64,000 nt of DNA, taken from assembly GCA_043756865.1 (NCBI GenBank), contig JAYUQG010000024.1, positions 91,259 through 155,258 of the forward strand. Reading direction: 5' to 3'. A model generated the notes under the pieces. It was given only the letters and a program-made list of their open reading frames with translations. It did not search any database and was not told the DNA's origin. Each line of letters opens with the position of its first letter. Position 1 is the first letter of the stretch. Of this stretch, positions 10,757 through 46,424 are shown one piece after another. The DNA comes from a bacterium. Its GTDB lineage: Bacteria; Patescibacteriota; Minisyncoccia; Phycocordibacterales; UBA6899. Position numbers and translations under genes: made by a program.

Positions 10757-11092
10757 GCATACAGAATAGCATAGCAAGAAAGCAGGCTTAGCCTAAGGGA
10801 ACTCTCGGCTACCGCCGCGGGTGATATTCAATCTCGACGACTTGATAATGGATATCCTTTCTTCAGCAGACGGGACTCTAGCATAAGAGGCGCAACACCC
10901 ATTTCCAATTTTCAGAACGAGACTCTGTCGCGAATATTTTGCTTGCCGCCGAGCGCAAAATTTCTCGACCCCAGCTCGTGGTTTCGCCTGCTGACGAAAC
11001 ATCGCTCCGCTTTTCGAGTCCCTCGTTGAGTGCGGCAGCGCACTCAACACCGCCGTGCAAAAATACCACCTTACGGTGGCTTTTTGTATTTG

Positions 11093-11400: not shown

Positions 11401-11424
11401 AGGACTCGGTCACGAGTTACTAAG
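11401..11424. repeat. 24-nt repeat related to the repeats next to tRNA-Gln (36153-36186 and 37301-37331, reverse complement)
   Basis: aggactcggtcacgagttactaag matches the reverse complement of cttagtgactcgtgaccgagtcc at 36153-36175 at 22 of 24 positions. Confidence 0.5.
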
Positions 11425-11550
11425 TCTTTTGGTGCGAAGGCCACCAAAAGCCCAAGTACTCCCGACCCCGACTCGCCCGTCTCACAAGGCTTCGACATGG
11501 CTCCGTCTTTCGATTCCTGATGAAAGTGCCATTGGGCGCTTTTTTGTAAT

Positions 11551-18027: not shown

Positions 18028-18083
18028 GCGGTATGTGAAATAGTTCTTAGCATCCCCCGCGCCTTGGCGCGGGGGCTTTCTTT
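18028..18083 (+). terminator. Rho-independent terminator after the PBP1A gene
   Basis: cccccgcgccttggcgcgggggctttcttttt. Confidence 0.7.
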
Positions 18084-18140
18084 TTGCCAAATTCACGTTA
18101 TGGTGAGATGAGACAGCTGTTTAACTTTTTGGAGAATAAC

Positions 18141-19466: not shown

Positions 19467-19494
19467 ATAAACACCCGCCATGGCGGGTGTTTTC
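19467..19494. terminator. Bidirectional terminator
   Basis: aacacccgccatggcgggtgtttt. Confidence 0.7.
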
Positions 19495-20169
19495 TTATGC
19501 AAACAAATGCGGCTTGTCCGTGAAGATGCGCTCGGCTCCCCAGTCATAGACGCGCTTAGCCGTCTTCAGGTCATTTACTGTCCATACCCACACATGAAAG
19601 CTTAGTGCTTTGGCGCGAGCCATGAACTCACCTCCGTTTTGCATGTCCATGTCTGCGTTCATATATTCCATGTGCAGATTATCTATCTGCGCTTCGTGGA
19701 GGATATCGAGGTAGCGCACATCGGGGATAGCGTCCATGATGACGCCGACCGTGAGGCGGGGGGAGCGTTTTTTGATGAGCAACGCAGTGGGGTGGTGAAA
19801 TGTGGAAATGACAAATTGCTCTGCCCGCCATCCAGCATGGGTGATGTACCAATGCATAATCTCCAGCACTCTTTGCCATATGGCTGGGTCTTTGATTTCG
19901 ATATTTACACGACAGGAATCATTGATCACATCGAGCGCATCCACGATAGTTGGAACATTGCCTCCAGAATAAGGGTCATGCGCAATGACAGGAAAATTTT
20001 TATCCCCAAGTGGGTTTATTCTTGCATCGAATTCGATCATTACTGCACCTCTATCAATCGAGGCACGAAACGCCGCAAGTGAGTTTTCGGCAATGAGGAC
20101 AATATGCCCTCCGCAGTTGACATATCCGTGCCGGCCTCGATGGTCGATGAGATCTTTCTGGGTGAACAT
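19495..20169 (-). CDS. Glycerophosphodiester phosphodiesterase (GDPD family)
   Basis: HRGRHG..ENSLAAF..GAVMIEFDARI GDPD motifs. Confidence 0.8.
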   Translation of the reverse strand: MFTQKDLIDHRGRHGYVNCGGHIVLIAENSLAAFRASIDRGAVMIEFDARINPLGDKNFPVIAHDPYSGGNVPTIVDALDVINDSCRVNIEIKDPAIWQRVLEIMHWYITHAGWRAEQFVISTFHHPTALLIKKRSPRLTVGVIMDAIPDVRYLDILHEAQIDNLHMEYMNADMDMQNGGEFMARAKALSFHVWVWTVNDLKTAKRVYDWGAERIFTDKPHLFA

Positions 20170-33720: not shown

Positions 33721-33837
33721 AGTTATCCACACCCACCCCTTGCGTAATTCTACACAGGGTGTATATTTCATTCATCGAGACGATACGTCGTCTCAATTTA
33801 ACAAAGCCCGTCTCTGACGGGCTTTTTTACGTCTCCA
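33721..33837 (+). repeat. Direct repeat R', right copy (promoter-like element, hairpin, terminator)
   Basis: Near-identical to 32044-32158, including gagacgatacgtcgtctc and agcccgtctctgacgggcttttttacg. Confidence 0.7.
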
Positions 33838-33901
33838 CAACCGCCACAGCTTTTTCAAGAAAAAAACCGCCAACTGTTGATGGCGGTTTATTGTGTTTCT
33901 G

Positions 33902-34621
33902 CTATTTACGCAGTTTGCGAATGAGCGGTTTCACGAGTATGAGGGTGATGTTGAGTGCAATCAGGCAAAGCCACAATCCAAATAGGTATTTCATGGCTGT
34001 GAAAAACCAGTCATGTTCAGTCCAGATTTCTTTGAGCGTGAACACGAAGTAGTCTGGGTCATGCCACGCGAATGCGACGATTGCTGCCACAAAAAGTGAG
34101 GTGAGGATGATTTGCCCTCGTGGTTCCTCCACAAGCCACGCGCCGATGCGCTCGAGACGATTCGTGATTTTGCTCCACCCCTCCGCCGTTCGTACGGCGA
34201 TGGGTGTCCAGAATGCACGGAGTGCTTCGTGAATTGGATCCCATGCCATATGCCAAATCTTGGTGACCCAACTTGCGGTAGCATTCCACATGCGGGCAAG
34301 TCTGTCGCCGAGTCTCAGCACGCTCACGATGGCCACTATGGTGAGGGCGACCTGACCCAAGATTGCAAAGGGAAGTCCCACAATAAGGAGCGGAATACCC
34401 CACCATGCACCTGCAGAAATTCGTTCAACAAATGCACTGCCGAGCAGTAGCGCAAAAGAGAGAATCGCCACTCCCCATGCAGGTAAGAGTGGCATTTCAT
34501 GGCGGAGCCAAAATTTGAGCCCCACAAACAGGTGGAAGTAATAAGCAATTCCTGATTTCTCGGGAACTGATTCATGCCTTGCGAGGTACGGACGCTCAAA
34601 GAAAAACCGTGCAATGTTCAT
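33902..34621 (-). CDS. Hypothetical membrane protein
   Basis: 239 aa with several TM helices. No motif recognised. Confidence 0.5.
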   Translation of the reverse strand: MNIARFFFERPYLARHESVPEKSGIAYYFHLFVGLKFWLRHEMPLLPAWGVAILSFALLLGSAFVERISAGAWWGIPLLIVGLPFAILGQVALTIVAIVSVLRLGDRLARMWNATASWVTKIWHMAWDPIHEALRAFWTPIAVRTAEGWSKITNRLERIGAWLVEEPRGQIILTSLFVAAIVAFAWHDPDYFVFTLKEIWTEHDWFFTAMKYLFGLWLCLIALNITLILVKPLIRKLRK

Positions 34622-34758
34622 GTGATGAACCCCTTTTTATCTTTCTGCAAACTACAACGATAAATGGTTATTGTAAAGAGCTTGTCGTCATGTGGTGTAT
34701 TGCACTCTCCGCCCCCACCCCGTATCATTTGCACCAGCATGTACAGCGGGAAAAGGTA

Positions 34759-35055
34759 ATGGGCAAAATGGATACATGGCGTATGACCGAAACAGGCACG
34801 GTCGGAGAATGGATACAGGCACCCAATGGTGAATTTGTGGGGACTATTGTCTCCGACTGTGGCGATGTGTACATCGCAGGAAGCAAGGACTGCCCTGATC
34901 CCTACGATGGCGCGCTCATTACCAAAGGCACGCGCGTGCGCTTCGTCCCCGAGCAAAAGGGGAACAAGGTGAAAGACATGGACACGGGTGTTCCGTACTC
35001 TTGGGGCGTCGCTCGAGAAATCGCGATTGTTCCTAAAACACTCAAGCACCGTTAG
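34759..35055 (+). CDS. Small hypothetical protein
   Basis: The internal ATG with an upstream AAGG gives 98 aa (MGKMDTWRMTETGTVGEWIQ..). The longer ORF from 34579 has an implausible Cys-rich N-terminus. Confidence 0.4.
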   Translation: MGKMDTWRMTETGTVGEWIQAPNGEFVGTIVSDCGDVYIAGSKDCPDPYDGALITKGTRVRFVPEQKGNKVKDMDTGVPYSWGVAREIAIVPKTLKHR

Positions 35056-35396
35056 CGGTGCTTTTTCTTTGCACCGCTAATTTCCGCGGACTCACGCACC
35101 CAGGCGTCGATTTGCTCGCGGTCAGTCATGATTTCTTCGGGGACTTCCCAGTAGCTCATGGCTACCTTCTTTTGGTCTTTGCTTGAATATGCAAACGGGG
35201 CGCTGCCTAGCGTTTCATAGTGAGCACGGTTTGTCTCGTTCACCTTGAAATAAAGCGTGCTTTCGGCAATGATTCCAAAAATTATCCCGTCTAAGTACAG
35301 CCCATAGCCGCCAAACATGGATTTGGAGGTAATGCCACGAATGCGCCCTAAGACATCATGCACCACATAGTCGTGGAACTCACTCGATTTTTTCAT
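35052..35396 (-). CDS. TfoX N-terminal domain protein (TfoX/Sxy competence-regulator family)
   Basis: VLGRIRGITSKSMFGGYGLYLDGIIFGIIAESTLYFKVNE..APFAY..MSYWEVPEEI matches the TfoX_N pattern. Confidence 0.7.
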   Translation of the reverse strand: MKKSSEFHDYVVHDVLGRIRGITSKSMFGGYGLYLDGIIFGIIAESTLYFKVNETNRAHYETLGSAPFAYSSKDQKKVAMSYWEVPEEIMTDREQIDAWVRESAEISGAKKKHR

Positions 35397-35848
35397 GGAC
35401 GTGGTTTGTGCAATGCTTCTTGCTCAGTCTTAAAACGAAACCATACTTTTCTCCAGTACTGGTAAGTGAGAAAAATAAAGACTCCTGCTAAGGCCGACCA
35501 TGCTCCAAGCAGAAAAAAGTAGGCACACCAGAAAAGTTCTTTGATATAAAAATATTTGATGAGTTTTGGGTAGCAACTCACCTCCGCCTGTGTGGCGTCG
35601 GGGTACTTTCTGCGCTGCGCTTCTTCTAGACTGTTTGCCACTGATGCGTGCATCCAAGAAAAGAATACCGCACAGACACCGAGATATTCGATCCAACCCT
35701 TGTTTGAAATATACGCAGTAGTAAGCAATACGAAAGCCACAATAATGGATTCAACTTGCCACGTATGCATGCCCGTCAGCTTCTGTATGCGCACCATACC
35801 GAGGCAAAAGAGGTTTTTCATAGTGCAAATTGTAACATGGACAGACAT
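35393..35848 (-). CDS. Hypothetical membrane protein
   Basis: 151 aa with three or four TM helices. Overlaps the downstream gene by 4 nt, suggesting an operon. Confidence 0.45.
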   Translation of the reverse strand: MSVHVTICTMKNLFCLGMVRIQKLTGMHTWQVESIIVAFVLLTTAYISNKGWIEYLGVCAVFFSWMHASVANSLEEAQRRKYPDATQAEVSCYPKLIKYFYIKELFWCAYFFLLGAWSALAGVFIFLTYQYWRKVWFRFKTEQEALHKPRP

Positions 35849-35918
35849 GGGGGTAATACCTTGAAAAATAGACGCATTTGGCTATACTGCGTAGGTTAGT
35901 TGGATTGATATAACATAT

Positions 35919-35989
35919 TGCGGGTTCGTCTAATGGTAGGACGTTACCCTCTGGAGGTAAATATTGGGGTTCGAGTCCCTGACCCGCAG
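35919..35989 (+). tRNA. tRNA-Gln (anticodon CTG)
   Basis: TGCGGGTTCGTCTAATGGTAGGACGTTACCCTCTGGAGGTAAATATTGGGGTTCGAGTCCCTGACCCGCAG. U1-A72 pair and anticodon loop CTCTGGA. Confidence 0.85.
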
Positions 35990-36057
35990 TTACCACACAA
36001 AAACACTCTGCCAAGAGTGTTTTTGTTTTGTGGTAACTCGCGGGTCAGGGACTCGAA
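35971..36057. repeat. 87-nt palindrome: tRNA-Gln 3' end, a 20-bp hairpin, and an inverted copy of the tRNA 3' end
   Basis: tcgagtccctgacccgcag..ttaccacacaaaaacactctgccaagagtgtttttgttttgtggtaa..ctcgcgggtcagggactcgaa. Confidence 0.7.
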
Positions 36058-36152
36058 ATGCGTAAGGTGGTATACAAGACGAGCGAAGCGAGTGCTTGTC
36101 ACCGAGCCGGGGTCGAGAGCACTTTGTAGTTCGGTGGCCTTGCGCCGAAATA

Positions 36153-36186
36153 CTTAGTGACTCGTGACCGAGTCCCTGACCCGCAG
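36153..36186 (+). repeat. att-like direct repeat of the tRNA-Gln 3' end (18 of 19 nt identical)
   Basis: cttagtgactcgtgaccgagtccctgacccgcag, compared with the tRNA 3' end tcgagtccctgacccgcag. Confidence 0.6.
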
Positions 36187-36221
36187 CAATGTCGCAACGT
36201 CACCCTTTTTGGGTGATTTTG

Positions 36222-36391
36222 CTATGGGTGAAAATTGTTTGTGAGGGTGATGTTTTTCTCCCCCCGCTCAATTATGCCAATATATGTGCGGTGCACCTCG
36301 GCGCGCTCTGTGAGTTTTTCTTGGGAAAGCTCGCGTTTCAAGCGTTCCTCGCGGACTCGTTTGCCGAATTTGGTTAGCAACTGTTTATTCA
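36222..36391 (-). CDS. XRE-family (Cro/CI-type) HTH transcriptional regulator, 56 aa
   Basis: Below the 60-aa cutoff of the ORF track. The minus-strand translation reads MNKQLLTKFGKRVREERLKRELSQEKLTERAEVHRTYIGIIERGEKNITLTNNFHP, a canonical HTH_XRE. Divergent from the DUF2726 gene, with a palindrome gtaggaagttgcctac between them. Confidence 0.7.
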
Positions 36392-36452
36392 TATCTACAT
36401 GTACAGTGTAGGAAGTTGCCTACCATGGTTCTACATACTAAAGTTAGCAAAT

Positions 36453-37043
36453 ATGGACAATAATGCGGTGATATTTATACTAGTTGTTTTTGTTGTTTTT
36501 ATTGTGATGAAGATGTTTTTTCAAAAAAAGACACACACAAACACTCATTCAAAAAGCGGACTAATCCTTTCAATCATCTCGCTTTTGTTACCATTCGCGA
36601 AGGAGTTTTTAGAAAAGAGACAGGAGGAAAAGAAGTATATTACAGAAGACGCTCGATATAGTAAAAAACAATATTTCATGACGACCGCTGAGCATCATGT
36701 TTTCGACCAGTTGTTAAAAATAGCAGGGGAGAAATATCACGTCTTTCCGCAGGTGCACTACAGTAAAATTATGTACGCCGAGGGACAGCAGAATTTCCAT
36801 AATCCGTGGTTCAACAAGATAGACCGAAAGTCCGCAGACTTTGTACTTTTTGACAAGCACGACATTTCTCCTGTTTTGGTGATTGAGCATGACGATAAGA
36901 CTCATAATCGTAAAGACCGAATTGAAAGGGACGATTTTATTGACCACACACTTGAAAAAAGTGGAATTTCAATTGTGCATGTTCGACCATTCGCGACCGA
37001 AGAGGAACTGAAGAAACTACTCCAAGTAAAAATCAGTATATAA
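36453..37043 (+). CDS. DUF2726-like protein (PD-(D/E)xK nuclease-like fold) with an N-terminal TM segment
   Basis: Core FDQLLKIAGEKYHVFPQVHYSKIMY..ADFVLFDKHDISPVLVIEHDDKTHNRKDRIERDDFIDHTLEKSGISIVHV matches the DUF2726 pattern (..DF.. ..IELDD.SH....R..RD.F.D..L...GI.L.RI). Confidence 0.55.
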   Translation: MDNNAVIFILVVFVVFIVMKMFFQKKTHTNTHSKSGLILSIISLLLPFAKEFLEKRQEEKKYITEDARYSKKQYFMTTAEHHVFDQLLKIAGEKYHVFPQVHYSKIMYAEGQQNFHNPWFNKIDRKSADFVLFDKHDISPVLVIEHDDKTHNRKDRIERDDFIDHTLEKSGISIVHVRPFATEEELKKLLQVKISI

Positions 37044-37300
37044 GCTTGGATTGGCTTAAAATTGTTCCAACGTCGTCCCACACTCCCAGCAAATGGAAGC
37101 ACCCCTTGGGGGTGTTTTCATTTGCGGGAAAAAGTGCTCTGCAGCACTTTTGGCAGGGACTCGAAGCCGTTCTCCCCTATTTGTGAAGGATTCTTATCCT
37201 GAGTAAATGGAAAACGGGTACTGCCCCTGTAAGGGGAGAGTCTCTGACTCGGAAGACTGAGGCGAAACACTTGGCACATAAGCACTCCTGTGCGAATATG

Positions 37301-37331
37301 TTTAGTAACTAATGACCAGTCCCTGACCCGC
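37301..37331 (+). repeat. att-like partial repeat (agtccctgacccgc) with a flanking ttagtaact motif
   Basis: tttagtaactaatgaccagtccctgacccgc. 14 nt are identical to the tRNA-Gln 3' region. Confidence 0.5.
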
Positions 37332-37364
37332 TACTAAATTGAGTGAGGTTCGGTTCGCGAGAGT

Positions 37365-37790
37365 ATGATTATGACGCCAGAAAATTTAATAAACATAATA
37401 AGTATCGGAGGGGCACTACTAGGTGTTGTTGTTGGAGCACTCCTTAATCACTTTCTAGAAAAAGATAGAAATAAAGACTCTTTAATCTTAAATAAGAAAA
37501 TTGATATTTACTCCTCCCTGTTAGTTAAATTAAATACAGTATTTCAAGACAGTGAGAAAAATATTCTTAATGACCCACTCTTTGAAACAACAATCAGAAC
37601 AACCCTTGCACAATCATTGTCAGAAGCTCGCCTAATAGCTGATGCAAAATTAGAACAGAAACTCAGGGACTACTATGATGAAGCAGTGCTTTTTTGGGAG
37701 AATAAAAAGTACGACAACACCATGCCTAATTTAGTTATTGAGATTGAGCAGTTGATGCGAATTGAGCTAGGAAAAGAACGTCTGCATTAA
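37365..37790 (+). CDS. Hypothetical small membrane protein (one N-terminal TM plus helical region)
   Basis: 141 aa. A TM helix at 12-30 is followed by a charged helical segment. Confidence 0.45.
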   Translation: MIMTPENLINIISIGGALLGVVVGALLNHFLEKDRNKDSLILNKKIDIYSSLLVKLNTVFQDSEKNILNDPLFETTIRTTLAQSLSEARLIADAKLEQKLRDYYDEAVLFWENKKYDNTMPNLVIEIEQLMRIELGKERLH

Positions 37791-37915
37791 TCATTTTGCT
37801 GAGCGCCGAAATGACTTCTTTCAAATCGCCTTATATATCATTATTGGCTTAATGGGGGAAAGTAGGACGCAGGGGGCTGCGGTAAAACCACGAAGTGAAA
37901 AGAAGTATCGATCCA

Positions 37916-38614
37916 ATGAAAAACGAAAAAATTAACTCAAAAATCATCGCTCTGTGGAACAAGTATTTTCAGAATGACACTGAGGTGTACGCACCGATGT
38001 TCTACGATGACTTCAAGCGGGGCGGGTTATTGTTTGTCGGCATGAACCCGTCATTTAGCGAGCGAGGATTCAAGACGATCTTGAAAGGCACAAAGTATGA
38101 GAAGATTGACCCCACTTCGTTTTTCAGGTGGAGTAATATTTCCTCAAACCCTGATCTTATCAGCGACTGTATTGCGGTCGAGACCCATGCGTACGAGAAT
38201 TACAAACCCTTCTTTGCTCGTCCTGTTGCGATCGCAAAAGAAGTCGGGCTTGATTGGCAACACATTGATCTATTTCTTTATAAAGAAACATCGCAGGCAG
38301 ATTTCAAGAAACGCATTAAGGATGGTGACTTGCTGAATCAATTTGCACTCGAGCAAATCGCGCTCTTTGAGGAGGTGCTCCTTGCGATTGAGCCGAAGTG
38401 CATCATCGTTGCGAACGCATTCGGCTCCGAGCTTCTCCGTGAACACATCAAGAATGACCTCTTGTGGGATAAAGAGCGGGGATTTCACTGGTTCACCAAA
38501 GGAGGACGAAAGATTCCCATGCTCTTTTCCTCCATGCTTAGTGGGCAAAGAGCACTTGATCGGTGGTCGTATGAACGCTTGAAATGGCACGTTGGGCAGG
38601 CGGTAAAATCATGA
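37916..38614 (+). CDS. Hypothetical protein, possibly a divergent uracil-DNA glycosylase superfamily member
   Basis: LLFVGMNPSFSE resembles UDG motif A (GMNPG in SMUG, GINPG in MUG). C-terminal PMLFSSMLSGQRA resembles motif B (HPSP/MPSSSAR). By-eye similarity only. Confidence 0.3.
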   Translation: MKNEKINSKIIALWNKYFQNDTEVYAPMFYDDFKRGGLLFVGMNPSFSERGFKTILKGTKYEKIDPTSFFRWSNISSNPDLISDCIAVETHAYENYKPFFARPVAIAKEVGLDWQHIDLFLYKETSQADFKKRIKDGDLLNQFALEQIALFEEVLLAIEPKCIIVANAFGSELLREHIKNDLLWDKERGFHWFTKGGRKIPMLFSSMLSGQRALDRWSYERLKWHVGQAVKS

Positions 38615-39321
38615 AAATTATGACAGGAATATTTTTTTCACATCCACATACACTTTCAGATCAAGTAGGTAAAATCTTGGAAAGAGTTGGTCCTCAGAAA
38701 TTCTTTTCAAGTTCTGACAAAGAAGTGAAGAAAGCACAAGAAGGATTCGCGGCATATTTCTTCACTCTTACTTTAAAGAAATACACAGGAAGAGACTGGT
38801 GGTTAGCTCAATACGATCAAGCGGCTCGGTCTTATCCAGATTTTAATTTTATATCATTCGCCGAAAATCCTGGCGATATAAAGATGGAACCAGTAGAACT
38901 AACTGGTATTTATCCTCATTTCAAAACTTTTGATGAGGCCTTAAGAGTTGTTGAAAATAAAAAGAAGAAATATGGATCTGAGCCAGTGAATTTTAGTCTG
39001 CTGGTATTTGTTAATCACGAAAAAAGCGAAGAGTGGATTAATCTGCTAAGGGAGAAAGTGAGTAGCGAGCATCCATTCCTAAGTATTTGGACTATACACT
39101 TGAGATTCAAGAAGGGTGGAAAGGAAGTTGGTAAGTCGGTCGCCCAAAGCATACCCCCCTTGCCATGGCTGAGGATTGAAGCAGATACTGATGATTCAGA
39201 AGTGCACAAGCGCCAGCCGCTCCCATCCTATATGGAAGAGCATCATGAAGGAAGGAATACTTACGTCACATTCAAACCCGAGTTTCTTGATAAGATCAGG
39301 TCGTTGCAAAAAAGTGCCTAG
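38611..39321 (+). CDS. Hypothetical protein; its start overlaps the previous gene (ATGA)
   Basis: 236 aa with no motif recognised. 4-nt overlap with the upstream gene suggests an operon. Confidence 0.45.
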   Translation: MKIMTGIFFSHPHTLSDQVGKILERVGPQKFFSSSDKEVKKAQEGFAAYFFTLTLKKYTGRDWWLAQYDQAARSYPDFNFISFAENPGDIKMEPVELTGIYPHFKTFDEALRVVENKKKKYGSEPVNFSLLVFVNHEKSEEWINLLREKVSSEHPFLSIWTIHLRFKKGGKEVGKSVAQSIPPLPWLRIEADTDDSEVHKRQPLPSYMEEHHEGRNTYVTFKPEFLDKIRSLQKSA

Positions 39322-39628
39322 TTTGTTGGTGCTGTAAGAATATCCCCGAATGGCTTCACTGTACGGTATTTGTTGTAAATGAGGCAGAGACAGAGACGGG
39401 TGTTTTGTGTCTTATCTGTAGCATTCACAAAATGACCCCAGTGACCGAGACGCCTAGTTACAAGAGTAGAAGGGGTGGTAAGATATCCGTATAAGGTCTT
39501 GCCCTACATGTTTGAGACCGAGATAGTCAGCTATCAACAATAGGTTCGGCTGACCGAGTGCTATCAGAACTGGAAATTTAAAGATTCACTCAATTCCATC
39601 CCGACATACCGGCTGAGTGCCGTATCTA

Positions 39629-39667
39629 GAAACTCAAAGTCGCTCAATGGGCGACTTTGAGTTTGAG
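39629..39667 (+). other. Strong 13-bp hairpin in a 600-bp noncoding stretch
   Basis: aactcaaagtcgctcaatgggcgactttgagtt. Confidence 0.5.
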
Positions 39668-39806
39668 TTGTAGAATAGGTCTGTAATCTATAGGATATAC
39701 AAATGTCAGTCAAACTCATTCTGAAGAGATAGTCCGCTTCTTGAAAACCACAGAGCCGGAAGCCATTTGTATTAGGGGTGAATAGGGTGTCAGATTTGCA
39801 ACTTTC

Positions 39807-39821
39807 GGTTCGAATCCCTGA
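39807..39821 (+). repeat. tRNA T-arm-like fragment (ggttcgaatccctga); possible degenerate right att boundary
   Basis: 15 of 16 identity to the tRNA-Gln T-arm/acceptor junction ggttcgagtccctga. Confidence 0.4.
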
Positions 39822-39933
39822 AGCATTACCTCCACGGAATTGCACTGTACTTTCACCTTTTTTTATATTGCCTTGCGTTTTGTGCAGATATTGATAGTTT
39901 GAGCAGTATTATTTATCAACGCACGGCTTCTTT

Positions 39934-42681
39934 ATGCGTAAACTCGTCACCGTCTTATTCCTCGCCCTCACGCTTTTAGCTATCTCTCTGCCCACTGCGT
40001 TTGCAGCCTTCCCTGTTTTTCCTCCGACACTCAATAAAAGTCCCGACGCTGGGTATGCGGATGATTCAGTGAGCAGTGGAGTGGTGCCGAACATTGGTAC
40101 AACGAGTGCTACAGTCTTCACCTTTAAGGTGCTGTATGCACAGTCACAGAATCGTGAGCCATGGGACATTAATCTTGTTGTCACTGATGGAACAACCACT
40201 GCAATTCATGCGATGAATCATGATGTGGGTGCGAATGATCCAATATTACGCGATGGGAATTATGCGAATGGGGAACAGTACATCTTCGCTGCAACGCTCA
40301 CTCCAGGCATGTGGCAATACCACTTTGAAAGCGATTTCGGCGCACAACTTCCGGGAGCGGGGGAGTGGGATTTCACAGTGAGTGTCGATACGACTCCTTC
40401 GAAGTGTGGGGTGGATTGTTACTCAAATGTGCTTTTCCTGCCTGGACTTGAGGCGAGCAGATTATTTTGGACAGATCCAAATTGCATTTTCCTCAATTGC
40501 GAAAACCAACTATGGCTTGCCAATAGTGATACAGATGCAAAACAACTCTACCTTAATTCAAACGGCACAAGCATATTGAATGACATTTATACGAGTGTTG
40601 AACGAGGTGCGATCGACGAGGCGGCGATTCCTGTGGCGGGCACAAATATATATAAAACTTTTCTCAATAGTCTCAGTGAATGGAAGAATGAAGAGCATCT
40701 TATTGCCGACTACGCAGTAGCACCGTATGACTGGAGATTGTCAGTTGATGATGTGCTCACGAAGGGAATAAAAAACGGAGACAATATTTATTATGGTGGC
40801 GCGAGCGGGACATATATTCTTGATGAACTTTTACGCATGGCGTCCACGTCGAAAACGCAAAAAGTTACAATTGTTGCGCACTCAAATGGTGGATTAGTTG
40901 CAAAACAGTTAATGCTGAAGCTCCGCGAGCTAGGCAAGGAGGACTTGATTGACAGGCTCATTCTCGTCGCTGTTCCACAGGTTGGAACACCAAAGGCAGT
41001 CGGTGGACTACTTCACGGAACAGATCTTGGTCTCCCGTTCATTCTTGATGAGGAGCACGCTCGAACTCTTGGCGAGAATATGCCGAGTGCCTATGCATTG
41101 ATGCCATCTCAGAAATATTTCGAGACCATCAATCCGAATTCAATTACAAACAAACTCATTTCATTTACCGACTCACCGCTGTATGCGCCAGAGAGATCAC
41201 AGTACGGATTTTTGGTGAGCAACATGACGGAGCTTCGGGGCTATCTACTCGGCAGTGAAGGACGAACAGAGCCTGCCGATTCTGATCTCGATTCACCAAA
41301 TGTGCTGAAGTTCGAACTTCTCGATCAAGCATCATCAACCCATGCGCTACTCGATGAATGGCAACCTGCGAGTACGACCGAAGTGGTGCAAATTGGGGGA
41401 TGGGGAGAGAAAACCATATCCGGAGTCAGCTATTACACGGAACAACAACGTGATTGTGTGACTGTGCAGGGTCAGTTTGGCGCTAGTCACCAAGAGTGCG
41501 GTCCGTATTATGAGGTGAAAAAATACAAACCCAATTTTACGACAGAGGGCGATGGTACGGTGGTTGTTCCGAGTGCGCTTTGGATAGCGACAAGCACTTC
41601 GCAGGTTGAGAGGTATTGGGTGGATTTGAAAAAATACAATGATGAGAACATCGATAAAGACCACGCGAAAATACTGGAAGTGAGCACTCTCCTCGACTTC
41701 ATTAAGACCAAACTCACTAATGTGACGTCCTCACTCCCGAACTACATAGTAAACTCCGCATCGACGCTGAGCGACGCTCCAGACATAAAGTTTGTCTATA
41801 CACTCCACTCGCCGCTTTCGCTCAATCTCTACGACACTTTAGGAAATCATACGGGAATATCTACCACAACAGGTTACGTGGAGCAAAATATCTCAGGGTC
41901 TCGCTACGGCACATTCGGCGAAGTGAAGTATATTATTGCAAATGCCGATGTCGCTCAACATCTTGCGCTTCAGGGGTATGCGACAGGAACGTTCAGTTTG
42001 GATGTTGAAAAAGTACGTGGAGATATAATTCTCGCGAGCACCACCTTTGCTTCGGTGCCCGTATCTCCAAACACCATTGCGACATTCTCGCTTCCTGCAA
42101 ATGGTGACTTCTCATCTTCGACACCATTACGGGTTGACGTTGATGGAAATGGGGCAAATGATATCGTGCTCGTACCAGAGATTGGAGCAACTGTATATCC
42201 AGACTTCACTCCACCCGAAGCGATATTCTCATTTAATGCAATTACTAAAGATGTTGTGATTTTGGGGGAAGATAACGTTGGGACAACCTCAACACTAATC
42301 ACACCAACGTCGACCACCATCACTGACCAGTCGGGAAATACACTCAGCATCCCATTCATCAAGTTCAAAGAGAAGCCAACTAAATTAAAAATTGCATTCG
42401 ATACGTTAATTTATAACGGAGTAGCGACCGCAACACCATGGGTGACTATTGAGTATGAATGGGTGATTAAGAATAACGGCATGCTCCAGTCACTTTCACA
42501 GGATATTCGCATCAAGGGTGCGCGCCGTGTGACTGCAGACTATTCTTTGAGCAAGGGTGAAACCAAGATTATGGACAGAATCAGGGAGGATGGGGAAAAG
42601 AGTGTCACAAAAACTGTAAAAACGGGTGTAACCGTGCTTCCGCTGTCGACAAAAGCAGGAGCACTCGACGTGACGTATTGA
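39934..42681 (+). CDS. Large secreted alpha/beta-hydrolase (lipase/esterase GxSxG) protein with a long beta-rich C-terminal region
   Basis: Signal peptide MRKLVTVLFLALTLLAISLPTAFA. Nucleophile elbow VTIVAHSNGGLVAKQ. 915 aa. C-terminal about 400 aa rich in T/S/G/V repeats. Confidence 0.6.
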   Translation: MRKLVTVLFLALTLLAISLPTAFAAFPVFPPTLNKSPDAGYADDSVSSGVVPNIGTTSATVFTFKVLYAQSQNREPWDINLVVTDGTTTAIHAMNHDVGANDPILRDGNYANGEQYIFAATLTPGMWQYHFESDFGAQLPGAGEWDFTVSVDTTPSKCGVDCYSNVLFLPGLEASRLFWTDPNCIFLNCENQLWLANSDTDAKQLYLNSNGTSILNDIYTSVERGAIDEAAIPVAGTNIYKTFLNSLSEWKNEEHLIADYAVAPYDWRLSVDDVLTKGIKNGDNIYYGGASGTYILDELLRMASTSKTQKVTIVAHSNGGLVAKQLMLKLRELGKEDLIDRLILVAVPQVGTPKAVGGLLHGTDLGLPFILDEEHARTLGENMPSAYALMPSQKYFETINPNSITNKLISFTDSPLYAPERSQYGFLVSNMTELRGYLLGSEGRTEPADSDLDSPNVLKFELLDQASSTHALLDEWQPASTTEVVQIGGWGEKTISGVSYYTEQQRDCVTVQGQFGASHQECGPYYEVKKYKPNFTTEGDGTVVVPSALWIATSTSQVERYWVDLKKYNDENIDKDHAKILEVSTLLDFIKTKLTNVTSSLPNYIVNSASTLSDAPDIKFVYTLHSPLSLNLYDTLGNHTGISTTTGYVEQNISGSRYGTFGEVKYIIANADVAQHLALQGYATGTFSLDVEKVRGDIILASTTFASVPVSPNTIATFSLPANGDFSSSTPLRVDVDGNGANDIVLVPEIGATVYPDFTPPEAIFSFNAITKDVVILGEDNVGTTSTLITPTSTTITDQSGNTLSIPFIKFKEKPTKLKIAFDTLIYNGVATATPWVTIEYEWVIKNNGMLQSLSQDIRIKGARRVTADYSLSKGETKIMDRIREDGEKSVTKTVKTGVTVLPLSTKAGALDVTY

Positions 42682-43423: not shown

Positions 43424-44034
43424 ATGTCCCAACCCCCCTATCTTGCACCAACAGAAAATGGGTGTAAGTTTACTCATGCGATAAAAAAGAAATTCTCGCT
43501 TGCCTCTGGAGCACTCATGATTCTCGGTGGGTTATTCACTGCAGAGGGTTGCCATAGCGGCGGGTGGTTCGCCGTTTGACCGACTTGCGGCTGCACTCGG
43601 AGAGCTGCGGAGAGACCTCTCCAGCCTCGAAGTGTGCATTAACAACTTGGTACTTGTACCCGGTCCGCAGGGACCTCGAGGTATTCAGGGAGAGGTTGGA
43701 CCGCAGGGTTTACAGGGTGCTCCTGGTACACAGGGAGCGGTCGGTCGACTGATTACTTACCGTGTGACCTTACCATTCGCCGACATCGCGCTTAATTCTT
43801 CGGCTGCTGCAATCGCAAGGTGCGAACGCGGTGACCAGATACTCTGGTGGGTACTTCCTTCAGGGCTCGACTACTCAGATAGTGGACACAAGGCCTGACT
43901 ATATGGATTGGAACGGAACAAGTTTCGTCGAAGGATGGAAAGTCGTAGGTAGCAATACGAATCCTCCGGCAGGAATTCCCTCAAGCATCGGACTCATTGC
44001 CGCATACGCGCTGTGTAATGACGCCACGCCGTAG
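43424..44034 (+). pseudogene. Collagen-like (Gly-X-Y) repeat protein gene split across three reading frames (frameshifted pseudogene or sequencing errors)
   Basis: Frame a, 43424-43576, has signal-peptide-like MSQ..KKKFSLASGALMILGGLFTAEGC. Frame b, 43527-43898, carries GPQGPRGIQGEVGPQGLQGAPGTQGAVG. Frame c, 43831-44034, is a C-terminal domain. The three frames run consecutively and overlap. Confidence 0.5.
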
Positions 44035-44178
44035 TCTTGCTCGTTTATCAAAAAAACCGCTACTTGGCGTTGCCGCTCGAAGACTCACTTTTTTTGCGCG
44101 CTTTGCGCGGTAGATACAAAAAGCCATCACGTGGTTTTTTGGTAACACGGTCTCTATGTATTTTGCTAGAATACATTA

Positions 44179-44529
44179 ATGGAAAAACACCGTATCTACA
44201 CAATGAGCTTTGCTAGTGTTTATCCATTGTATGTCGCCAAGGCAGAGAAAAAGGGGCGTACGAAAAAAGAGGTGGATGAGGTCATCCGTTGGCTGACGAG
44301 GTACAGCCAGAAAGAATTGGGCACGCAACTGAAAAAACAAACAGACTTCGAGACGTTTTTTGGTGAGGCACCCGAAATGAATCCTGCGCGAGCATTAATT
44401 ACCGGTGTTATTTGTGGTGTGCGATTAGAAGATATTGAGGAAGCGCTTATGCGCGAAATCCGTTATCTGGATAAACTTATCGACGAGCTGGCTAAGGGGC
44501 GTACGATGGAGAGGATTTTGCGAAAGTAA
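44179..44529 (+). CDS. DUF2200 family protein
   Basis: [73 protein letters not shown] matches the DUF2200 pattern. Confidence 0.65.
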
Positions 44530-44577
44530 CACATCATCAGATGATGGAGTCACCAAGCTAAATGTTACAATTCCAAT

Positions 44578-44967
44578 ATGACAAAAAATAAAACAAAGTA
44601 TGTCGACGGGTTCGTGCTTATTGTTCCTCAAAAAAATGTAGCAGCTTACAAAAAAATGGCACAGAGTGCAGGGAAAATGTGGATGCGCTGTGGCGCTCTT
44701 GAGTACGTGGAATGTATGGGAGACGACATGTATCCACCATCCATGGGCATGCAGTCACTCACTTTTCCTAAATTGGCAAACGCGAAAAAGGGCGAGACGG
44801 TGTGGTTCTCCTACATTACGTACAAGTCTCGTGCGCATCGTGATCAGGTGAACAAAAAAGTATACGCAGAAATGAATAAAGTTGCTGCAAAGTACAAGAA
44901 CATGAAGATGCCCTTTGACATGAAGAAAATGGCATTCGGAGGCTTTAAGGTGATGGTACACAACTAA
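44578..44967 (+). CDS. DUF1428 family protein
   Basis: KYVDGFVLIVPQKNVAAYKKMAQSAGKMWMRCGALEYVECMGDD..FPKLA..GETVWFSYITYKSRAHRD..FGGFKVMV matches the DUF1428 pattern. Confidence 0.65.
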   Translation: MTKNKTKYVDGFVLIVPQKNVAAYKKMAQSAGKMWMRCGALEYVECMGDDMYPPSMGMQSLTFPKLANAKKGETVWFSYITYKSRAHRDQVNKKVYAEMNKVAAKYKNMKMPFDMKKMAFGGFKVMVHN

Positions 44968-44972
44968 TCTCT

Positions 44973-45380
44973 ATGCCGAAATCAGTCACAAAGTTACACG
45001 CAGACATCGAAGCATACAACAAGGCACAGTCTCGTGACGACAAAGCGATTTGCGTCATGTTGGCAGAAGAGATAATGCACAATCTTCCCGATGCTGAAAA
45101 TAAAATCTGGCACAGGCATCCTGTATGGTTTCTGGATGGAAATCCTGTTGTGGGGTATAGCAAGCTGAAGGATTCCGTCCGTCTCCTGTTTTGGAGCGGG
45201 CAGTCTTTTGATGAAGCGGGTTTAACGAATGAGGGAAGTTTTAAGGCAGCGGACATGCGCTATACGGAACTGTCACAGATAAACAAAAAAGACCTCAAGC
45301 GCTGGCTAAGGAAATCCGAGGATATTCAATGGGACTACAAAAACATTGTCAAAAGAAAGGGTGTGCTGATTAGATTGTAA
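44973..45380 (+). CDS. Hypothetical protein (DUF1801/YdhG-like?)
   Basis: 135 aa reading ..WHRHPVWFLDGNPVVGYSKLKDSVRLLFWSGQSF..QWDYKNIVKRKG. Family assignment is uncertain. Confidence 0.4.
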   Translation: MPKSVTKLHADIEAYNKAQSRDDKAICVMLAEEIMHNLPDAENKIWHRHPVWFLDGNPVVGYSKLKDSVRLLFWSGQSFDEAGLTNEGSFKAADMRYTELSQINKKDLKRWLRKSEDIQWDYKNIVKRKGVLIRL

Positions 45381-45482
45381 GCAGCGTTGTGGGTGCATAA
45401 TAACTTCAATATTTGCGAGGGAAAAATTTTGACAACCAGCCGTACGTATTCAAGACGGGAATTCTTTTGATATAATTAGTGC

Positions 45483-45830
45483 ATGCCTGATTTCGTCGTG
45501 AATACGTTTATTTCACTCGAGTCCAACGAACTGAGTGGAATTACATTGCTTGCAGCATTGGGGATCGTGTTTGTATTTTTTTGTTATTGGGGGATGCGAC
45601 TACTTCTGCCTTTGTTCCAAACAAATAAGCTACATATTTCAAAAAGACAAAAAATGATTTATGCATGGGGAGTCGTGGGTATTCTTTCACTTATTTTTTT
45701 AGGTATGATCAGAGAAAAGTTCCTTCCTTGGGTAGATAGCGATATCTTTATTTTCACATTCTCAGCAATTATTGTGTCGGGTTGTATCTATTTTTTGTTG
45801 AAGAAGGAGGATAAGACTATGCAAAAGTGA
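45483..45830 (+). CDS. Hypothetical membrane protein
   Basis: 115 aa with three TM helices. Confidence 0.4.
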   Translation: MPDFVVNTFISLESNELSGITLLAALGIVFVFFCYWGMRLLLPLFQTNKLHISKRQKMIYAWGVVGILSLIFLGMIREKFLPWVDSDIFIFTFSAIIVSGCIYFLLKKEDKTMQK

Positions 45831-45980
45831 ACTACTGTTTATTCAACCATTCACTCGTTCTCCCTTACGTTTGCTTTAGCATGCACTACGGGACCACGTA
45901 AGATCTGGGGGTGTCACCATGCCCATTCCGCTTAATGATATATTCTGCTACTCTCATTTCATAAATCTAATTTTATACAC

Positions 45981-46424
45981 ATGGCACGCGTCAGCACTTA
46001 TCTCAATTTCACTCGTTCGACGGAAGAAGCATTCAATTTTTACCAGTCAATCTTTGGAGGTACGTTCACGGGCGGAATCGCACGACTCGGTGATGCGCCT
46101 GCACAAGAGGGCATGCCCCCACTTGCTGATGGAGACAAAAATCTCGTTATGCATGTTGCACTCCCGATTCTCGGCGGTCACGTACTCATGGGCACCGATG
46201 CTCCAGAATCACTGGGATTTAAAGTCAGCTTTGGGAACAATATCTATATTAACCTTGAGCCGGACACTCGTACCCAAACAAAGAAATTGTTTGATGCGTT
46301 GTCGCAAGGAGGTAAAATTGAAATGGAGTTACAGGAAATGTTTTGGGGAGACTACTATGGTTCATGCACGGACAAATATGGGGTGCACTGGATGTTTAAT
46401 TGTAGTACTGCCCTTTCCAAATAA
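45981..46424 (+). CDS. VOC-family protein (PhnB / glyoxalase-bleomycin resistance-like)
   Basis: YLNFTRSTEEAFNFYQSIFGG..MHVALPILGGHVLMGTD..MELQEMFWGDYYGSCTDKYGVHWMF is PhnB-like. Confidence 0.7.
   Translation: MARVSTYLNFTRSTEEAFNFYQSIFGGTFTGGIARLGDAPAQEGMPPLADGDKNLVMHVALPILGGHVLMGTDAPESLGFKVSFGNNIYINLEPDTRTQTKKLFDALSQGGKIEMELQEMFWGDYYGSCTDKYGVHWMFNCSTALSK

What the first reader, a model, noticed from the sequence alone, without database searches (positions are those of the whole stretch)
35919..39840. Island-like ~3.9 kb segment at tRNA-Gln: XRE regulator, DUF2726 nuclease-like protein, TM protein, UDG-like protein and an unknown protein, bounded by tRNA 3'-end repeats
tRNA-Gln at 35919-35989 is followed by three partial copies of its own 3' end at 36168-36186, 37318-37331 and 39807-39821 (a degenerate T-arm fragment). 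Between them lie five genes. The first is a 56-aa Cro/CI-type HTH repressor, divergent from its neighbour across a palindrome gtaggaagttgcctac. The second is a DUF2726 PD-(D/E)xK-like protein with an N-terminal TM. The third is a small TM/coiled-coil protein. The fourth and fifth are overlapping genes: a protein with UDG-superfamily-like motifs (GMNPS..FSSMLSG) and a 236-aa unknown. tRNA-anchored integration, a repressor, a nuclease fold and a DNA-glycosylase-like fold together fit a small integrative element or defence island. A membrane-anchored nuclease-like protein operonic with a UDG-like protein is not a combination I recognise from known defence systems.
Basis: partly seen in the sequence, partly recalled or inferred. 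Interest (0 to 1): 0.8.

Follow-up and report, generated by a model that had tools for sequence, protein, structure and literature searches.

The report
Decayed defence island at tRNA-Gln
Downstream of a glutamine tRNA gene in a Patescibacteria genome lies a patchwork of worn-out mobile-element remnants with no recombinase; one remnant carries a previously undescribed family of DNA-glycosylase-fold proteins that elsewhere sits in anti-phage defence islands.

Summary
tRNA-Gln(CUG) is followed by copies of its own 3' end: 18/18, 14/14 and 14/15 matches, none expected by chance. The stretch is the lowest-GC 3.8 kb of the window.

It is not one element or one system. It is an integrase-less composite.
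- Segment A (35990-36186) is a solo structured "arm" plus an att core.
- Segment B (36187-37331) is a deletion derivative of a family of elements that integrate at tRNA-Gln. An intact relative (L099) carries a large serine recombinase, a rolling-circle Rep, a 70-aa XRE, DUF2726 and TIR cargo between 66-nt att repeats. Here the recombinase and Rep are gone and the XRE is cut after residue 52.
- Segment C (37332-39821) carries a rare TM protein, P4 and P5.

P4 homologues (358+, almost all Patescibacteria) lie beside Mrr, type I/IIG R-M and helicase-nucleases. They often follow tRNA-Gln. They are followed by a swappable gene and a conserved 165-nt non-coding element.

DUF2726 and P4 are not a conserved pair. 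P4 is most likely a Brig-like glycosylase acting on modified bases; this is inferred, not shown.

The parts
35918..35990 (+). tRNA-Gln(CUG). Its T-loop and 3' end (35970-35989) act as the attL-type site.
   Evidence: ARAGORN; Rfam tRNA 56.6 bits.
35992..36038 (+). Terminator-like hairpin directly after the tRNA.
   Evidence: Inverted repeats I2 and I10; terminator scan 35997-36026.
36040..36168 (+). Arm 'e1', a conserved structured non-coding arm. It starts with an inverted copy of the tRNA 3' end (36040-36057) and ends in the dyad ACTCG-TGAC-CGAGT.
   Evidence: 18/18 inverted copy. RNA fold of 35990-36190, which includes the terminator hairpin: -106.8 kcal/mol, z = -10. nhmmer E 4e-31, with homologues in L080, L028, L012 and after tRNA-Met and tRNA-Asp of this window.
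36169..36186 (+). att core copy 2, a direct repeat of the tRNA-Gln 3' end (18/18).
36187..36235 (+). Extension of the att repeat. It is homologous to the part of the 66-nt attL/attR repeat of the intact element L099 that follows the core. The deletion junction lies at about 36236.
   Evidence: blastn of segment B positions 1-37 against L099 10115-10151, 86%; L099 repeat D1; alignment A4.
36222..36392 (-). Truncated XRE / controller-protein-like HTH gene: 56 aa, with residues 1-52 matching 70-aa homologues.
   Evidence: Pfam HTH_3 covers 1-40 of 55. PADLOC Control_protein E 3e-14 covers 7-53 of 77. 79-81% identity to the 70-aa XRE of L097/L099 up to residue 52, then divergence and a stop.
36393..36452 (.). 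Divergent regulatory region with the palindrome GTAGGAAGTTGCCTAC (36408-36423).
   Evidence: conserved in L097 and L099.
36453..37043 (+). DUF2726 (PD-(D/E)xK clan) protein with a hydrophobic N-terminus, 196 aa.
   Evidence: Pfam PF10881 E 9e-24. 38 homologues, mostly 150-200 aa. Conserved XRE|DUF2726 module in L097-L100.
37044..37317 (+). Arm 2, a divergent copy of the structured arm, with an inverted tRNA-end copy at 37154-37168.
   Evidence: Fold -118.4 kcal/mol, z = -4.2. TTAGTAACTAATGACC matches the arm motif with 2 mismatches. Alignment A4.
37318..37331 (+). att core copy 3 (14/14).
37365..37790 (+). P3, a small protein with an N-terminal hydrophobic helix. Rare family, function unknown, GC 0.34.
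   Evidence: No Pfam, PADLOC or PHROG hit. 29 representatives in an exhaustive search. Absent from all P4 loci.
37916..38614 (+). P4, a UDG-superfamily-fold protein of an undescribed family. Motif GMNPS follows beta-1; FSSMLSGQR follows the last strand.
38611..39321 (+). P5, a probable PD-(D/E)xK-like nuclease-fold protein. Homologues mostly start at the ATG at 38620.
39370..39535 (+). Conserved non-coding element (CNE), about 165 nt, with one hairpin and three GACCGAGAC-like direct repeats.
   Evidence: 75-89% nt identity in 15 or more loci downstream of P4 plus a variable gene. Also in L093 without P4. No covarying structure; fold z about 0 on both strands.
39603..39664 (+). 24-nt stretch shared with L004, followed by a hairpin (39630-39664).
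39807..39821 (+). Degenerate copy of the tRNA-Gln T-arm (14/15). It is the probable decayed outer attR.
   Evidence: Its distance from the CNE (272 nt) is comparable to the CNE-to-core distance in L028 and L080 (about 175-185 nt).

Best explanation
The 3.9-kb stretch is a decayed, recombinase-less composite island. It was built by successive site-specific insertions at the T-loop / 3' end of tRNA-Gln. New elements enter at the tRNA and push older material rightwards, and each leaves a copy of the tRNA 3' end.

Segment A (35990-36186) is only the right-hand structured arm of such an element plus its att core.

Segment B (36187-37331) is what is left of an element of the L099 type. That type reads: large serine recombinase, rolling-circle Rep, XRE, DUF2726, cargo, arm. 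An internal deletion removed the recombinase, the Rep and the last 18 codons of the XRE. The conserved operator region, the membrane-anchored DUF2726 nuclease-fold gene and the right arm remain.

Segment C (37332-39821) is the oldest part. It holds a rare membrane protein, then a unit shared with relatives: P4, a swappable gene slot (here P5) and a conserved non-coding element. It ends in a degenerate tRNA T-arm copy.

P4 is a member of a new, almost Patescibacteria-specific family with a uracil-DNA-glycosylase fold. By context it most likely excises a non-canonical (phage-type modified) base from invading DNA, as Brig1 and Brig2 do. The neighbouring P5, with a PD-(D/E)xK-like fold, is an independent nuclease-type module co-transcribed with P4.

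Shown:
- the repeats;
- the atypical composition;
- the XRE truncation;
- homology to an intact integrated element;
- the P4 fold;
- the genomic contexts.

Inferred:
- the order of insertion events;
- glycosylase activity and substrate;
- a defence role;
- nuclease activity of P5 and DUF2726.

The confidence given (0.7) is for the composite-island anatomy. The Brig-like function of P4 on its own I put at about 0.4-0.5.
For: Repeats and their significance.

Composition: lowest GC of the window and top 1% tetranucleotide distance.

Intact relative L099:
- tRNA-Gln(ctg), with a 66-nt imperfect direct repeat 7205 bp apart.
- Between the repeats: a 488-aa Resolvase/Recombinase/Zn_ribbon_recom protein, a RepSA/REP_ORF2-G2P Rep, a 70-aa XRE, DUF2726 and ThsB_TIR.
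- A structured arm with an inverted tRNA-end copy lies just inside attR.

Links between the window and that family:
- Window 36187-36235 is homologous to the L099 att flank.
- The XRE is identical in register to residue 52 of 70 and then broken.
- The operator region is conserved.
- No recombinase or Rep is present in the window.

Arm family:
- Found by nhmmer at three tRNAs of this window and in L080, L028 and L012. In those three loci it sits immediately right of P4, a variable gene and the CNE. In L028 and L080 it ends in a tRNA-Gln-like 3' end; the L012 contig stops within the arm.

P4:
- Fold.
- tRNA-Gln lies upstream on the same strand in L005, L054, L067, L036, L023 and L008.
- Neighbours include Mrr_cat, type I REase, type IIG, GajB-like UvrD, Hhe-like helicase and Cas4-like DUF2779.
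- 28 of 57 loci have such a neighbour within 4 kb.
- A remote homologue lies on a conjugative Runella plasmid, next to a Dcm + MvaI/BcnI R-M system.

Against: - No empty-site genome of a close relative could be found, so insertion is inferred from repeats and composition only.
- In L005 and L054, P4 directly follows tRNA-Gln with no detectable repeats. This also fits vertical inheritance of P4 as a chromosomal neighbour of the tRNA.
- The outermost repeat (39807-39821) covers only the T-arm. No arm precedes it.
- The inverted copies of the tRNA end, 113-150 nt from the direct copies, are not explained by standard serine-recombinase att sites.
- P4 has no sequence-level link to any UDG family: Pfam, PADLOC and PDB searches were negative, and hhalign probability against a Pfam-UDG protein was 1.8%.
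- P4's motif B lacks the usual His.
Confidence: 0.7

Rival explanations
1. P3-P4-P5 is not island cargo but part of the ancestral chromosomal neighbourhood of tRNA-Gln. On this view P4 is a housekeeping or R-M-companion repair glycosylase. It would act on T:G or U:G mismatches, analogous to Vsr or Mig enzymes that repair deaminated 5-methylcytosine. Only segments A and B would be insertions.
For: - tRNA-Gln lies 55-62 bp upstream of P4 in L005 and L054, with no repeats.
- L005 and L008 share DNA_alkylation upstream and SWIB about 5 kb downstream.
- P4 is highly conserved.
- Its motif GMNPS resembles the Asn-type motif A of the MUG/TDG and SMUG1 families (from memory of those families).
- Dcm methyltransferases lie next to P4 in L008, L083 and the Runella plasmid.
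Against: - Segment C has the same low GC as segment B: 0.417 against 0.488.
- In L028 and L080, P4 lies to the left of an attR-type junction; L012 has the same arm, but its contig ends within it.
- Most loci have no tRNA within 8 kb and no methyltransferase. Instead they carry Mrr, type I R-M or helicase-nucleases.
- The distribution is patchy, and the Runella copy is on a conjugative plasmid.
- L099 has tRNA-Gln without P4 after attR.
Confidence: 0.2
2. The five genes form one functional system: an XRE-controlled membrane nuclease acting together with a UDG-like enzyme and an unknown partner.
For: - The five genes are physically adjacent.
- Four of the five lie on the same strand.
- The region has a shared low GC.
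Against: - An att copy and a structured arm separate DUF2726 from P3-P5.
- The XRE is truncated.
- DUF2726 is absent from about 80 P4 loci, and P3 is absent from all of them.
- DUF2726's conserved neighbours are mobile-element genes.
- P5 occurs without P4.
Confidence: 0.04
3. The short structured arms are not scars of deleted elements. They would be autonomous-looking miniature non-coding mobile elements, analogous to MITEs or CIMEs. A recombinase encoded elsewhere would insert them in trans at tRNA T-loops. Segments A-C would then be delimited by such insertions rather than by whole elements.
For: - The same arm family lies next to three different tRNAs in this window (Gln, Met, Asp). Each carries an inverted and a direct copy of that tRNA's own 3' end and no cargo.
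- L036 has an analogous 145-nt insert.
- The arms are much better conserved than their surroundings.
Against: - An arm of the same architecture sits inside attR of the intact element L099. This explains arms as element ends.
- No circular or excised forms were seen.
- Only a handful of copies are known.
Confidence: 0.25
4. P4, the gene slot and the CNE form a cassette-exchange platform. P4 would be a conserved sensor or enzyme working with interchangeable effector genes. The CNE would be the site where effectors are swapped.
For: - Window against L012: P4 is 79% and the CNE 89% identical at nucleotide level, yet a different gene lies between them.
- At least eight different downstream gene families occur, several nuclease-like: P5, a PD-Lambda-3_A-like 148-aa protein, an HNH protein, and a second UDG.
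- The CNE carries three repeats of the motif that forms the left half of the att core, GTGACCGAG.
Against: - Homologous recombination between two conserved flanks explains the swapping without any dedicated site.
- The CNE also occurs without P4, in L093.
- P5 and the other partners occur without P4.
- There is no experimental link between P4 and any partner.
Confidence: 0.15

Closest known systems
Brig1 / Brig2 antiviral DNA glycosylases of the UDG superfamily (PMC11078745; bioRxiv 10.1101/2025.10.29.685425). Brig3-BapA (PMC13160076) is a precedent only for a glycosylase gene with an overlapping partner gene.
   Same: - Single small gene in AT-rich defence islands or mobile elements next to R-M systems.
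- Brig3 is also encoded with an overlapping downstream partner gene.
   Different: - No detectable sequence similarity.
- P4 homologues are almost all Patescibacteria, whereas Brig1 homologues are mainly Actinobacteria.
- Activity, substrate and phenotype of P4 are untested.
- P4 has an Asn-type motif A (GMNPS).
- P4 is followed by a variable gene and a conserved non-coding element.
Integrative elements that insert in tRNA genes with a large serine recombinase and a RepSA-type rolling-circle Rep (AICE-like, pSAM2-type). Related: tandem accretion of integrase-less derivatives (CIMEs).
   Same: - Direct repeats of the tRNA 3' end.
- Regeneration of the tRNA.
- An intact relative (L099) with recombinase, Rep and XRE.
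- A tandem array of att copies with recombinase-less remnants.
   Different: - The window copy has lost the recombinase and Rep.
- pSAM2 itself uses a tyrosine integrase (from memory).
- The arms carry an extra inverted copy of the tRNA end. This is not a described feature.
- The host phylum is Patescibacteria.
Controller (C) proteins of restriction-modification systems.
   Same: The best PADLOC hits of the XRE are Control_protein models (E 3e-14). A palindromic operator lies in a divergent promoter region.
   Different: - No methyltransferase or classical REase is attached.
- In relatives it is the regulator of a mobile element.
- Here it is truncated.
SNIPE (PD-lambda-1), a membrane-bound nuclease that cleaves phage DNA during injection (PMC13190303).
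   Same: The concept only: an N-terminal membrane anchor plus a cytoplasmic nuclease-fold domain, as in the TM-DUF2726 protein.
   Different: - SNIPE has DUF4041 plus GIY-YIG domains and is about 500 aa. The window protein is 196 aa with a PD-(D/E)xK-clan DUF2726 domain.
- There is no homology.
- No function has been tested.

Membership tests
UDG superfamily (P4) | Alpha/beta fold with a central parallel sheet, as in UDG families 1-6. | tested here: met
   [not shown]
UDG superfamily (P4) | Motif A (G-x-x-P-x) right after beta-1, with a catalytic Asp or Asn. | tested here: met
   G42-M-N44-P45-S46 directly follows strand 38-42. G42, N44 and S46 are invariant and P45 is >=90% conserved in 34 sequences. 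The assignment is by position in the fold, not by a residue-level superposition.
UDG superfamily (P4) | Motif B (HPS-type loop) after the last core strand. | tested here: inconclusive
   F204-S-S206-M-L-S-G210-Q-R follows strand 200-205 and is invariant or nearly so. It has no His. It resembles the TDG/MUG type only loosely (from memory).
UDG superfamily (P4) | Sequence-profile match (Pfam PF03167 or a PDB UDG). | tested here: not met
   No Pfam hit. No PDB hit with the family profile. hhalign probability against a Pfam-UDG protein was 1.8%.
UDG superfamily (P4) | N-glycosidic bond cleavage. | not testable with these tools
   Requires a biochemical assay.
Brig-type defence glycosylases (P4) | Sequence homology to Brig1, Brig2 or Brig3. 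| not tested
None of the 358 hits is from the phyla reported for Brig1. PADLOC 2023 has no Brig model.
Brig-type defence glycosylases (P4) | Location in defence islands or mobile elements. | tested here: met
   28 of 57 loci have an annotated defence-type neighbour within 4 kb. The Runella plasmid copy lies next to an R-M system.
Brig-type defence glycosylases (P4) | Protection against phages with a modified base. | not testable with these tools
   Requires expression and phage challenge.
tRNA-integrating serine-recombinase element (segments A and B) | Direct repeats of the tRNA 3' end flanking the insert. | tested here: met
   18/18 and 14/14 copies. The same is seen in L099, as a 66-nt repeat.
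tRNA-integrating serine-recombinase element (segments A and B) | An element-encoded recombinase. | tested here: not met
   No match to the L099 recombinase or Rep anywhere in the 64-kb window. Both are present in the relatives L099 and L100.
tRNA-integrating serine-recombinase element (segments A and B) | An empty site in a related genome. | tested here: inconclusive
   Only one distant lipase relative was found in the genome collection. The exact lipase protein is not on record. Logan contigs break at 35941 and 39912, which is only suggestive.
R-M controller protein (XRE) | A complete five-helix HTH and linkage to an R-M system. | tested here: not met
   The profile is covered only to position 53 of 77. 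The protein is truncated relative to 70-aa homologues. No methyltransferase or classical REase is adjacent.
DUF2726 / PD-(D/E)xK clan | Pfam PF10881 above the gathering score. | tested here: met
   84 bits against a cut-off of 24.7.
PD-(D/E)xK nucleases (P5) | Core alpha-beta-beta-beta-alpha-beta fold with an E...PD...(D/E)xK catalytic set. | tested here: inconclusive
   [not shown]

The most novel reading that the evidence does not exclude
Two linked novelties may be hidden here.

1. P4 may define a new Patescibacteria-wide class of glycosylase-based immunity. A UDG-fold enzyme would work with interchangeable downstream effector genes. The 165-nt conserved non-coding element, carrying repeats of the att half-site motif, would be the site at which effectors are exchanged.

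2. The about 130-nt structured arms carry both an inverted and a direct copy of the neighbouring tRNA's 3' end. They may be a new kind of miniature element that targets tRNA T-loops.
Probability: 0.15. Interest if true: 0.8.

Novelty: new variant of a known kind. Interest (0 to 1): 0.55.

Why it matters
Patescibacteria (CPR) have tiny genomes, few recognised defence systems and almost no characterised mobile elements.

This locus, read together with its relatives, shows three things:
- A family of small elements that carry a serine recombinase and a rolling-circle Rep and insert at tRNA T-loops.
- A recurrent variable hot spot downstream of tRNA-Gln.
- A widespread, unannotated family of UDG-fold proteins embedded among restriction enzymes.

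If P4 is an antiviral glycosylase, the recently discovered Brig-type immunity would extend to CPR bacteria. That would imply that their phages use modified bases.

The conserved non-coding element and the tRNA-mimicking arms are concrete, testable candidates for new recombination sites.

Tried and rejected
- **Rfam on 35000-40500.** An E-value scan found only the tRNA. A weak group I intron hit (E 0.53) at 39598-39753 was not pursued.
- **Sequence-level links of P4 and P5 to known families.** Pfam, PADLOC, PHROGs and PDB profile searches were all negative. The NCBIfam call failed on a coordinate error and was not repeated.
- **hhalign of the P4 family against a Pfam-UDG protein.** Probability 1.8%.
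- **P4 in phages.** IMG/VR gave none. GenBank phages gave none.
- **Search for an empty site.** The lipase query in the genome collection found one distant hit. The exact lipase protein is not on record.
- **CNE as a structured RNA: rejected.** There are no covarying pairs, and the fold z-score is about 0 on both strands.
- **CNE as a small ORF: rejected by eye.** No ORF and no codon periodicity.
- **CNE as part of the L099-type element: rejected.** No blast hit in L097-L100.
- **One IMG/VR hit to the CNE seed (L092).** It was a chance match inside a gene.
- **tmRNA or permuted tRNA for the 39807 fragment.** ARAGORN finds none.
- **Integron or attC reading of the arms.** Considered and dropped: no integron integrase and too few copies.
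- **The afdb50 fold library.** Not available.
- **Runella 133-aa downstream ORF against the 148-aa partner.** No similarity.

Full report
**1. The observation**

tRNA-Gln(CUG) lies at 35918-35990 (Rfam 56.6 bits).

Its 3' end recurs as a direct copy three times:
- 36169-36186, 18/18 identical.
- 37318-37331, 14/14 identical.
- 39807-39821, a T-arm-only copy, 14/15 identical.

The 14-mer occurs four times in the window against 0.02 expected. The 15-mer with one mismatch is not expected at all.

Each lies 113-150 nt to the left of a direct copy.

The five ORFs are present.

The stretch 35990-39821 has GC 0.425. The mean of 210 same-size windows elsewhere in the window is 0.488 +/- 0.021, and none is as low. 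Its tetranucleotide distance is in the top 1%.

**2. The proteins**

*XRE (36222-36392, minus strand).* It hits HTH_3 and, best of all, the R-M controller-protein models of PADLOC (E 3e-14). Only the first two-thirds of the profiles are covered.

*DUF2726 (36453-37043).* It is a clear DUF2726 protein of the PD-(D/E)xK clan (E 9e-24) with a hydrophobic N-terminus.

*P3, P4 and P5.* None has a hit in Pfam, PADLOC or PHROGs.

*P4.*
- It has 358 homologues, almost all from Patescibacteria, and none carries a Pfam domain.
- An AlphaFold model built on 34 of them reaches pLDDT 89.5.
- The invariant GMNPS lies right after strand 1 and the invariant FSSMLSGQR right after the last strand. These are the positions of UDG motifs A and B.
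- At sequence level nothing links P4 to UDGs.

*P5.*
- It has 144 homologues and a model with pLDDT 87.4.
- It conserves E44, P76-D77 and E96.

*P3.* It belongs to a rare family of 29 representatives in an exhaustive search.

**3. Segment B is a broken mobile element**

The closest DUF2726 homologues (68% and about 48% identity) sit in a conserved module:
- A 70-aa XRE lies on the opposite strand across a conserved operator region.
- Beyond the XRE lie a RepSA/REP_ORF2-G2P rolling-circle Rep and, in L099 and L100, a 488-aa large serine recombinase.
- After DUF2726 comes cargo: Fic in L097, ThsB-TIR in L099.

L099 is an intact integrated copy:
- tRNA-Gln(ctg) lies at 2839-2910.
- A 66-nt imperfect direct repeat (2893-2958 and 10098-10163) spans 7205 bp.
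- A structured arm with an inverted copy of the tRNA end lies just inside attR.

The window compares to it as follows:
- The sequence that follows att copy 2 (36187-36235) is homologous to the part of the L099 repeat that follows the core.
- The XRE matches the 70-aa proteins at 79-81% up to residue 52, then diverges and stops.
- No recombinase or Rep is found in the whole window.

Segment B is therefore a deletion derivative that lost its recombinase, its Rep and the XRE C-terminus.

**4. The arms**

The 130 nt between the inverted copy at 36040 and the direct copy at 36169 make up a conserved element.
- nhmmer finds it in L080, L028/L029 and L012.
- It also finds it twice more in this window: after tRNA-Met (11407-11519, minus strand) and after tRNA-Asp (10935-11022, minus strand).
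- Arm 2 (37044-37317) is a divergent copy.
- Each arm starts with an inverted copy and ends with a direct copy of the 3' end of its own neighbouring tRNA.
- The junction reads ACTCG-TGAC-CGAGT, a dyad whose right half is the T-loop (read directly from the sequence).
- The stretch containing arm e1 folds very stably, with z = -10.

Segment A is just such an arm. It may be the scar of a deleted element or a miniature element in its own right.

**5. P4 in other genomes**

I examined 80 metagenome loci plus several assemblies.

- *tRNA-Gln linkage.* tRNA-Gln lies upstream of P4 on the same strand in L005 and L054 (55-62 bp), L067, L036, L023 and L008. A P5 homologue also lies 1.3 kb after a tRNA-Gln, in L096.
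- *Neighbours.* They are overwhelmingly on the same strand as P4 and of defence type. They include Mrr_cat with a zinc ribbon directly upstream (14 deduplicated loci), Cas4-like DUF2779, type I REase, type IIG enzymes, GajB-like UvrD, an Hhe-like helicase and a Ppl/AriA-like ATPase. In 28 of 57 loci at least one such neighbour lies within 4 kb.
- *Remote homologue.* A 28%-identical homologue lies on a conjugative Runella plasmid after a Dcm + MvaI/BcnI R-M system. It too has a small overlapping downstream ORF.
- *Phages.* P4 is absent from phage collections.
- *The downstream slot.* The gene after P4 varies among at least eight families. P5 fills the slot only here and in L004.
- *The conserved non-coding element (CNE).* The variable gene is followed by a 165-nt non-coding element (window 39370-39535). 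Where both can be compared (L012, L080, L014) it is better conserved than P4 itself: against L012, 89% versus 79% nucleotide identity.
- *The right-hand junction.* In L028 and L080 the CNE is followed by a terminator, an e1-type arm and a tRNA-Gln-like 3' end. That is an attR-type junction. L012 has the same arm, but its contig ends within it. P4 therefore lies inside the island there. In the window the degenerate copy at 39807 occupies the corresponding place.
- *Nature of the CNE.* It is not a structured RNA. It contains three GACCGAGAC-like repeats that resemble the left half of the att core.

**6. Interpretation**

The best-supported reading is a composite, decayed island at a tRNA-Gln hot spot. 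It is neither a single element nor a five-gene system.

DUF2726 belongs to the backbone of the serine-recombinase element. P4 and P5 are independent modules of Patescibacteria defence islands.

For P4, three things point to a Brig-like enzyme that removes a modified base from invading DNA:
- The fold.
- The Asn-type motif A.
- The company of Mrr and R-M enzymes.

A repair role remains a serious rival. This would be T:G or U:G mismatch repair accompanying cytosine methylation.

The membrane-anchored DUF2726 protein is conceptually similar to SNIPE (PMC13190303). It is unrelated in sequence and untested.

**7. Verdict**

The island itself is of a known kind. The P4 family, its swappable slot, the conserved non-coding element and the tRNA-mimicking arms are new variants worth experimental follow-up.

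Every functional statement about P4, P5 and DUF2726 is inference.

Noticed in passing
window 39370-39535; also L012 1238-1403, L080 664-825, L004 4722-4864, L028 10073-10234, L093 1438-1592 (-): A 165-nt non-coding element is conserved at 75-89% nucleotide identity across genomes whose flanking proteins are only 47-90% identical. It has one hairpin and three GACCGAGAC-like direct repeats. It has no covarying RNA structure and no Rfam match. It usually lies after P4 plus a variable gene, but it also occurs without P4.
   Followed up: partly
window 11407-11519 (-) and 10935-11022 (-): The structured arm family seen at tRNA-Gln also follows tRNA-Met and tRNA-Asp. Each copy has a terminator hairpin, an inverted copy and a partial direct copy of that tRNA's own 3' end, and no cargo genes.
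   Followed up: partly
window 35970-36057: The tRNA-Gln 3' end, a terminator-like hairpin and an inverted copy of the tRNA end together form one near-perfect palindrome of about 88 nt. If transcribed through, the inverted copy could pair with the tRNA's own T-arm and acceptor strand.
   Followed up: no
L071 1901-2629 and L074 (gene directly after the P4 homologue): In two distant P4 loci (about 37-39% identity) the downstream gene is itself a Pfam-recognisable UDG (PF03167, E 3.6e-11, with a GEAPS motif). Two UDG-fold genes therefore sit in tandem.
   Followed up: no
L099 2839-10163 (NCBI GCA_900206355.1, OBEQ010832871.1): An apparently intact 7.2-kb integrative element lies at tRNA-Gln. It encodes a large serine recombinase, a RepSA/G2P-type Rep, XRE, DUF2726 and a ThsB-like TIR protein between 66-nt att repeats. 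L097 and L098 carry a related XRE-DUF2726 module with Fic cargo and a Rep.
   Followed up: partly
L001 (window 33801-39912) and L003 (ends at window 35941): The only public contigs identical to this region break about 90 bp after the outer repeat and inside tRNA-Gln, respectively. This may reflect strain variation at the island borders.
   Followed up: no
L096 5049-7185 and L094 5025-12617: P5 homologues occur without P4. One lies 1.3 kb after a tRNA-Gln(ttg). Another follows T5orf172, an EcoRI-type methylase and a GmrSD/HNH enzyme, with DUF2726 and NERD genes 2-3 kb downstream.
   Followed up: partly
window 39598-39753: A weak Rfam group I intron match (17.3 bits, E 0.53) lies in the long intergenic region between the conserved element and the degenerate tRNA fragment.
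   Followed up: no
window 15500-19500 and 44000-46000: Other compositionally atypical stretches: the highest tetranucleotide distance, with GC up to 0.58, at about 15.5-19 kb, and low GC (0.41) at 45-46 kb.
   Followed up: no
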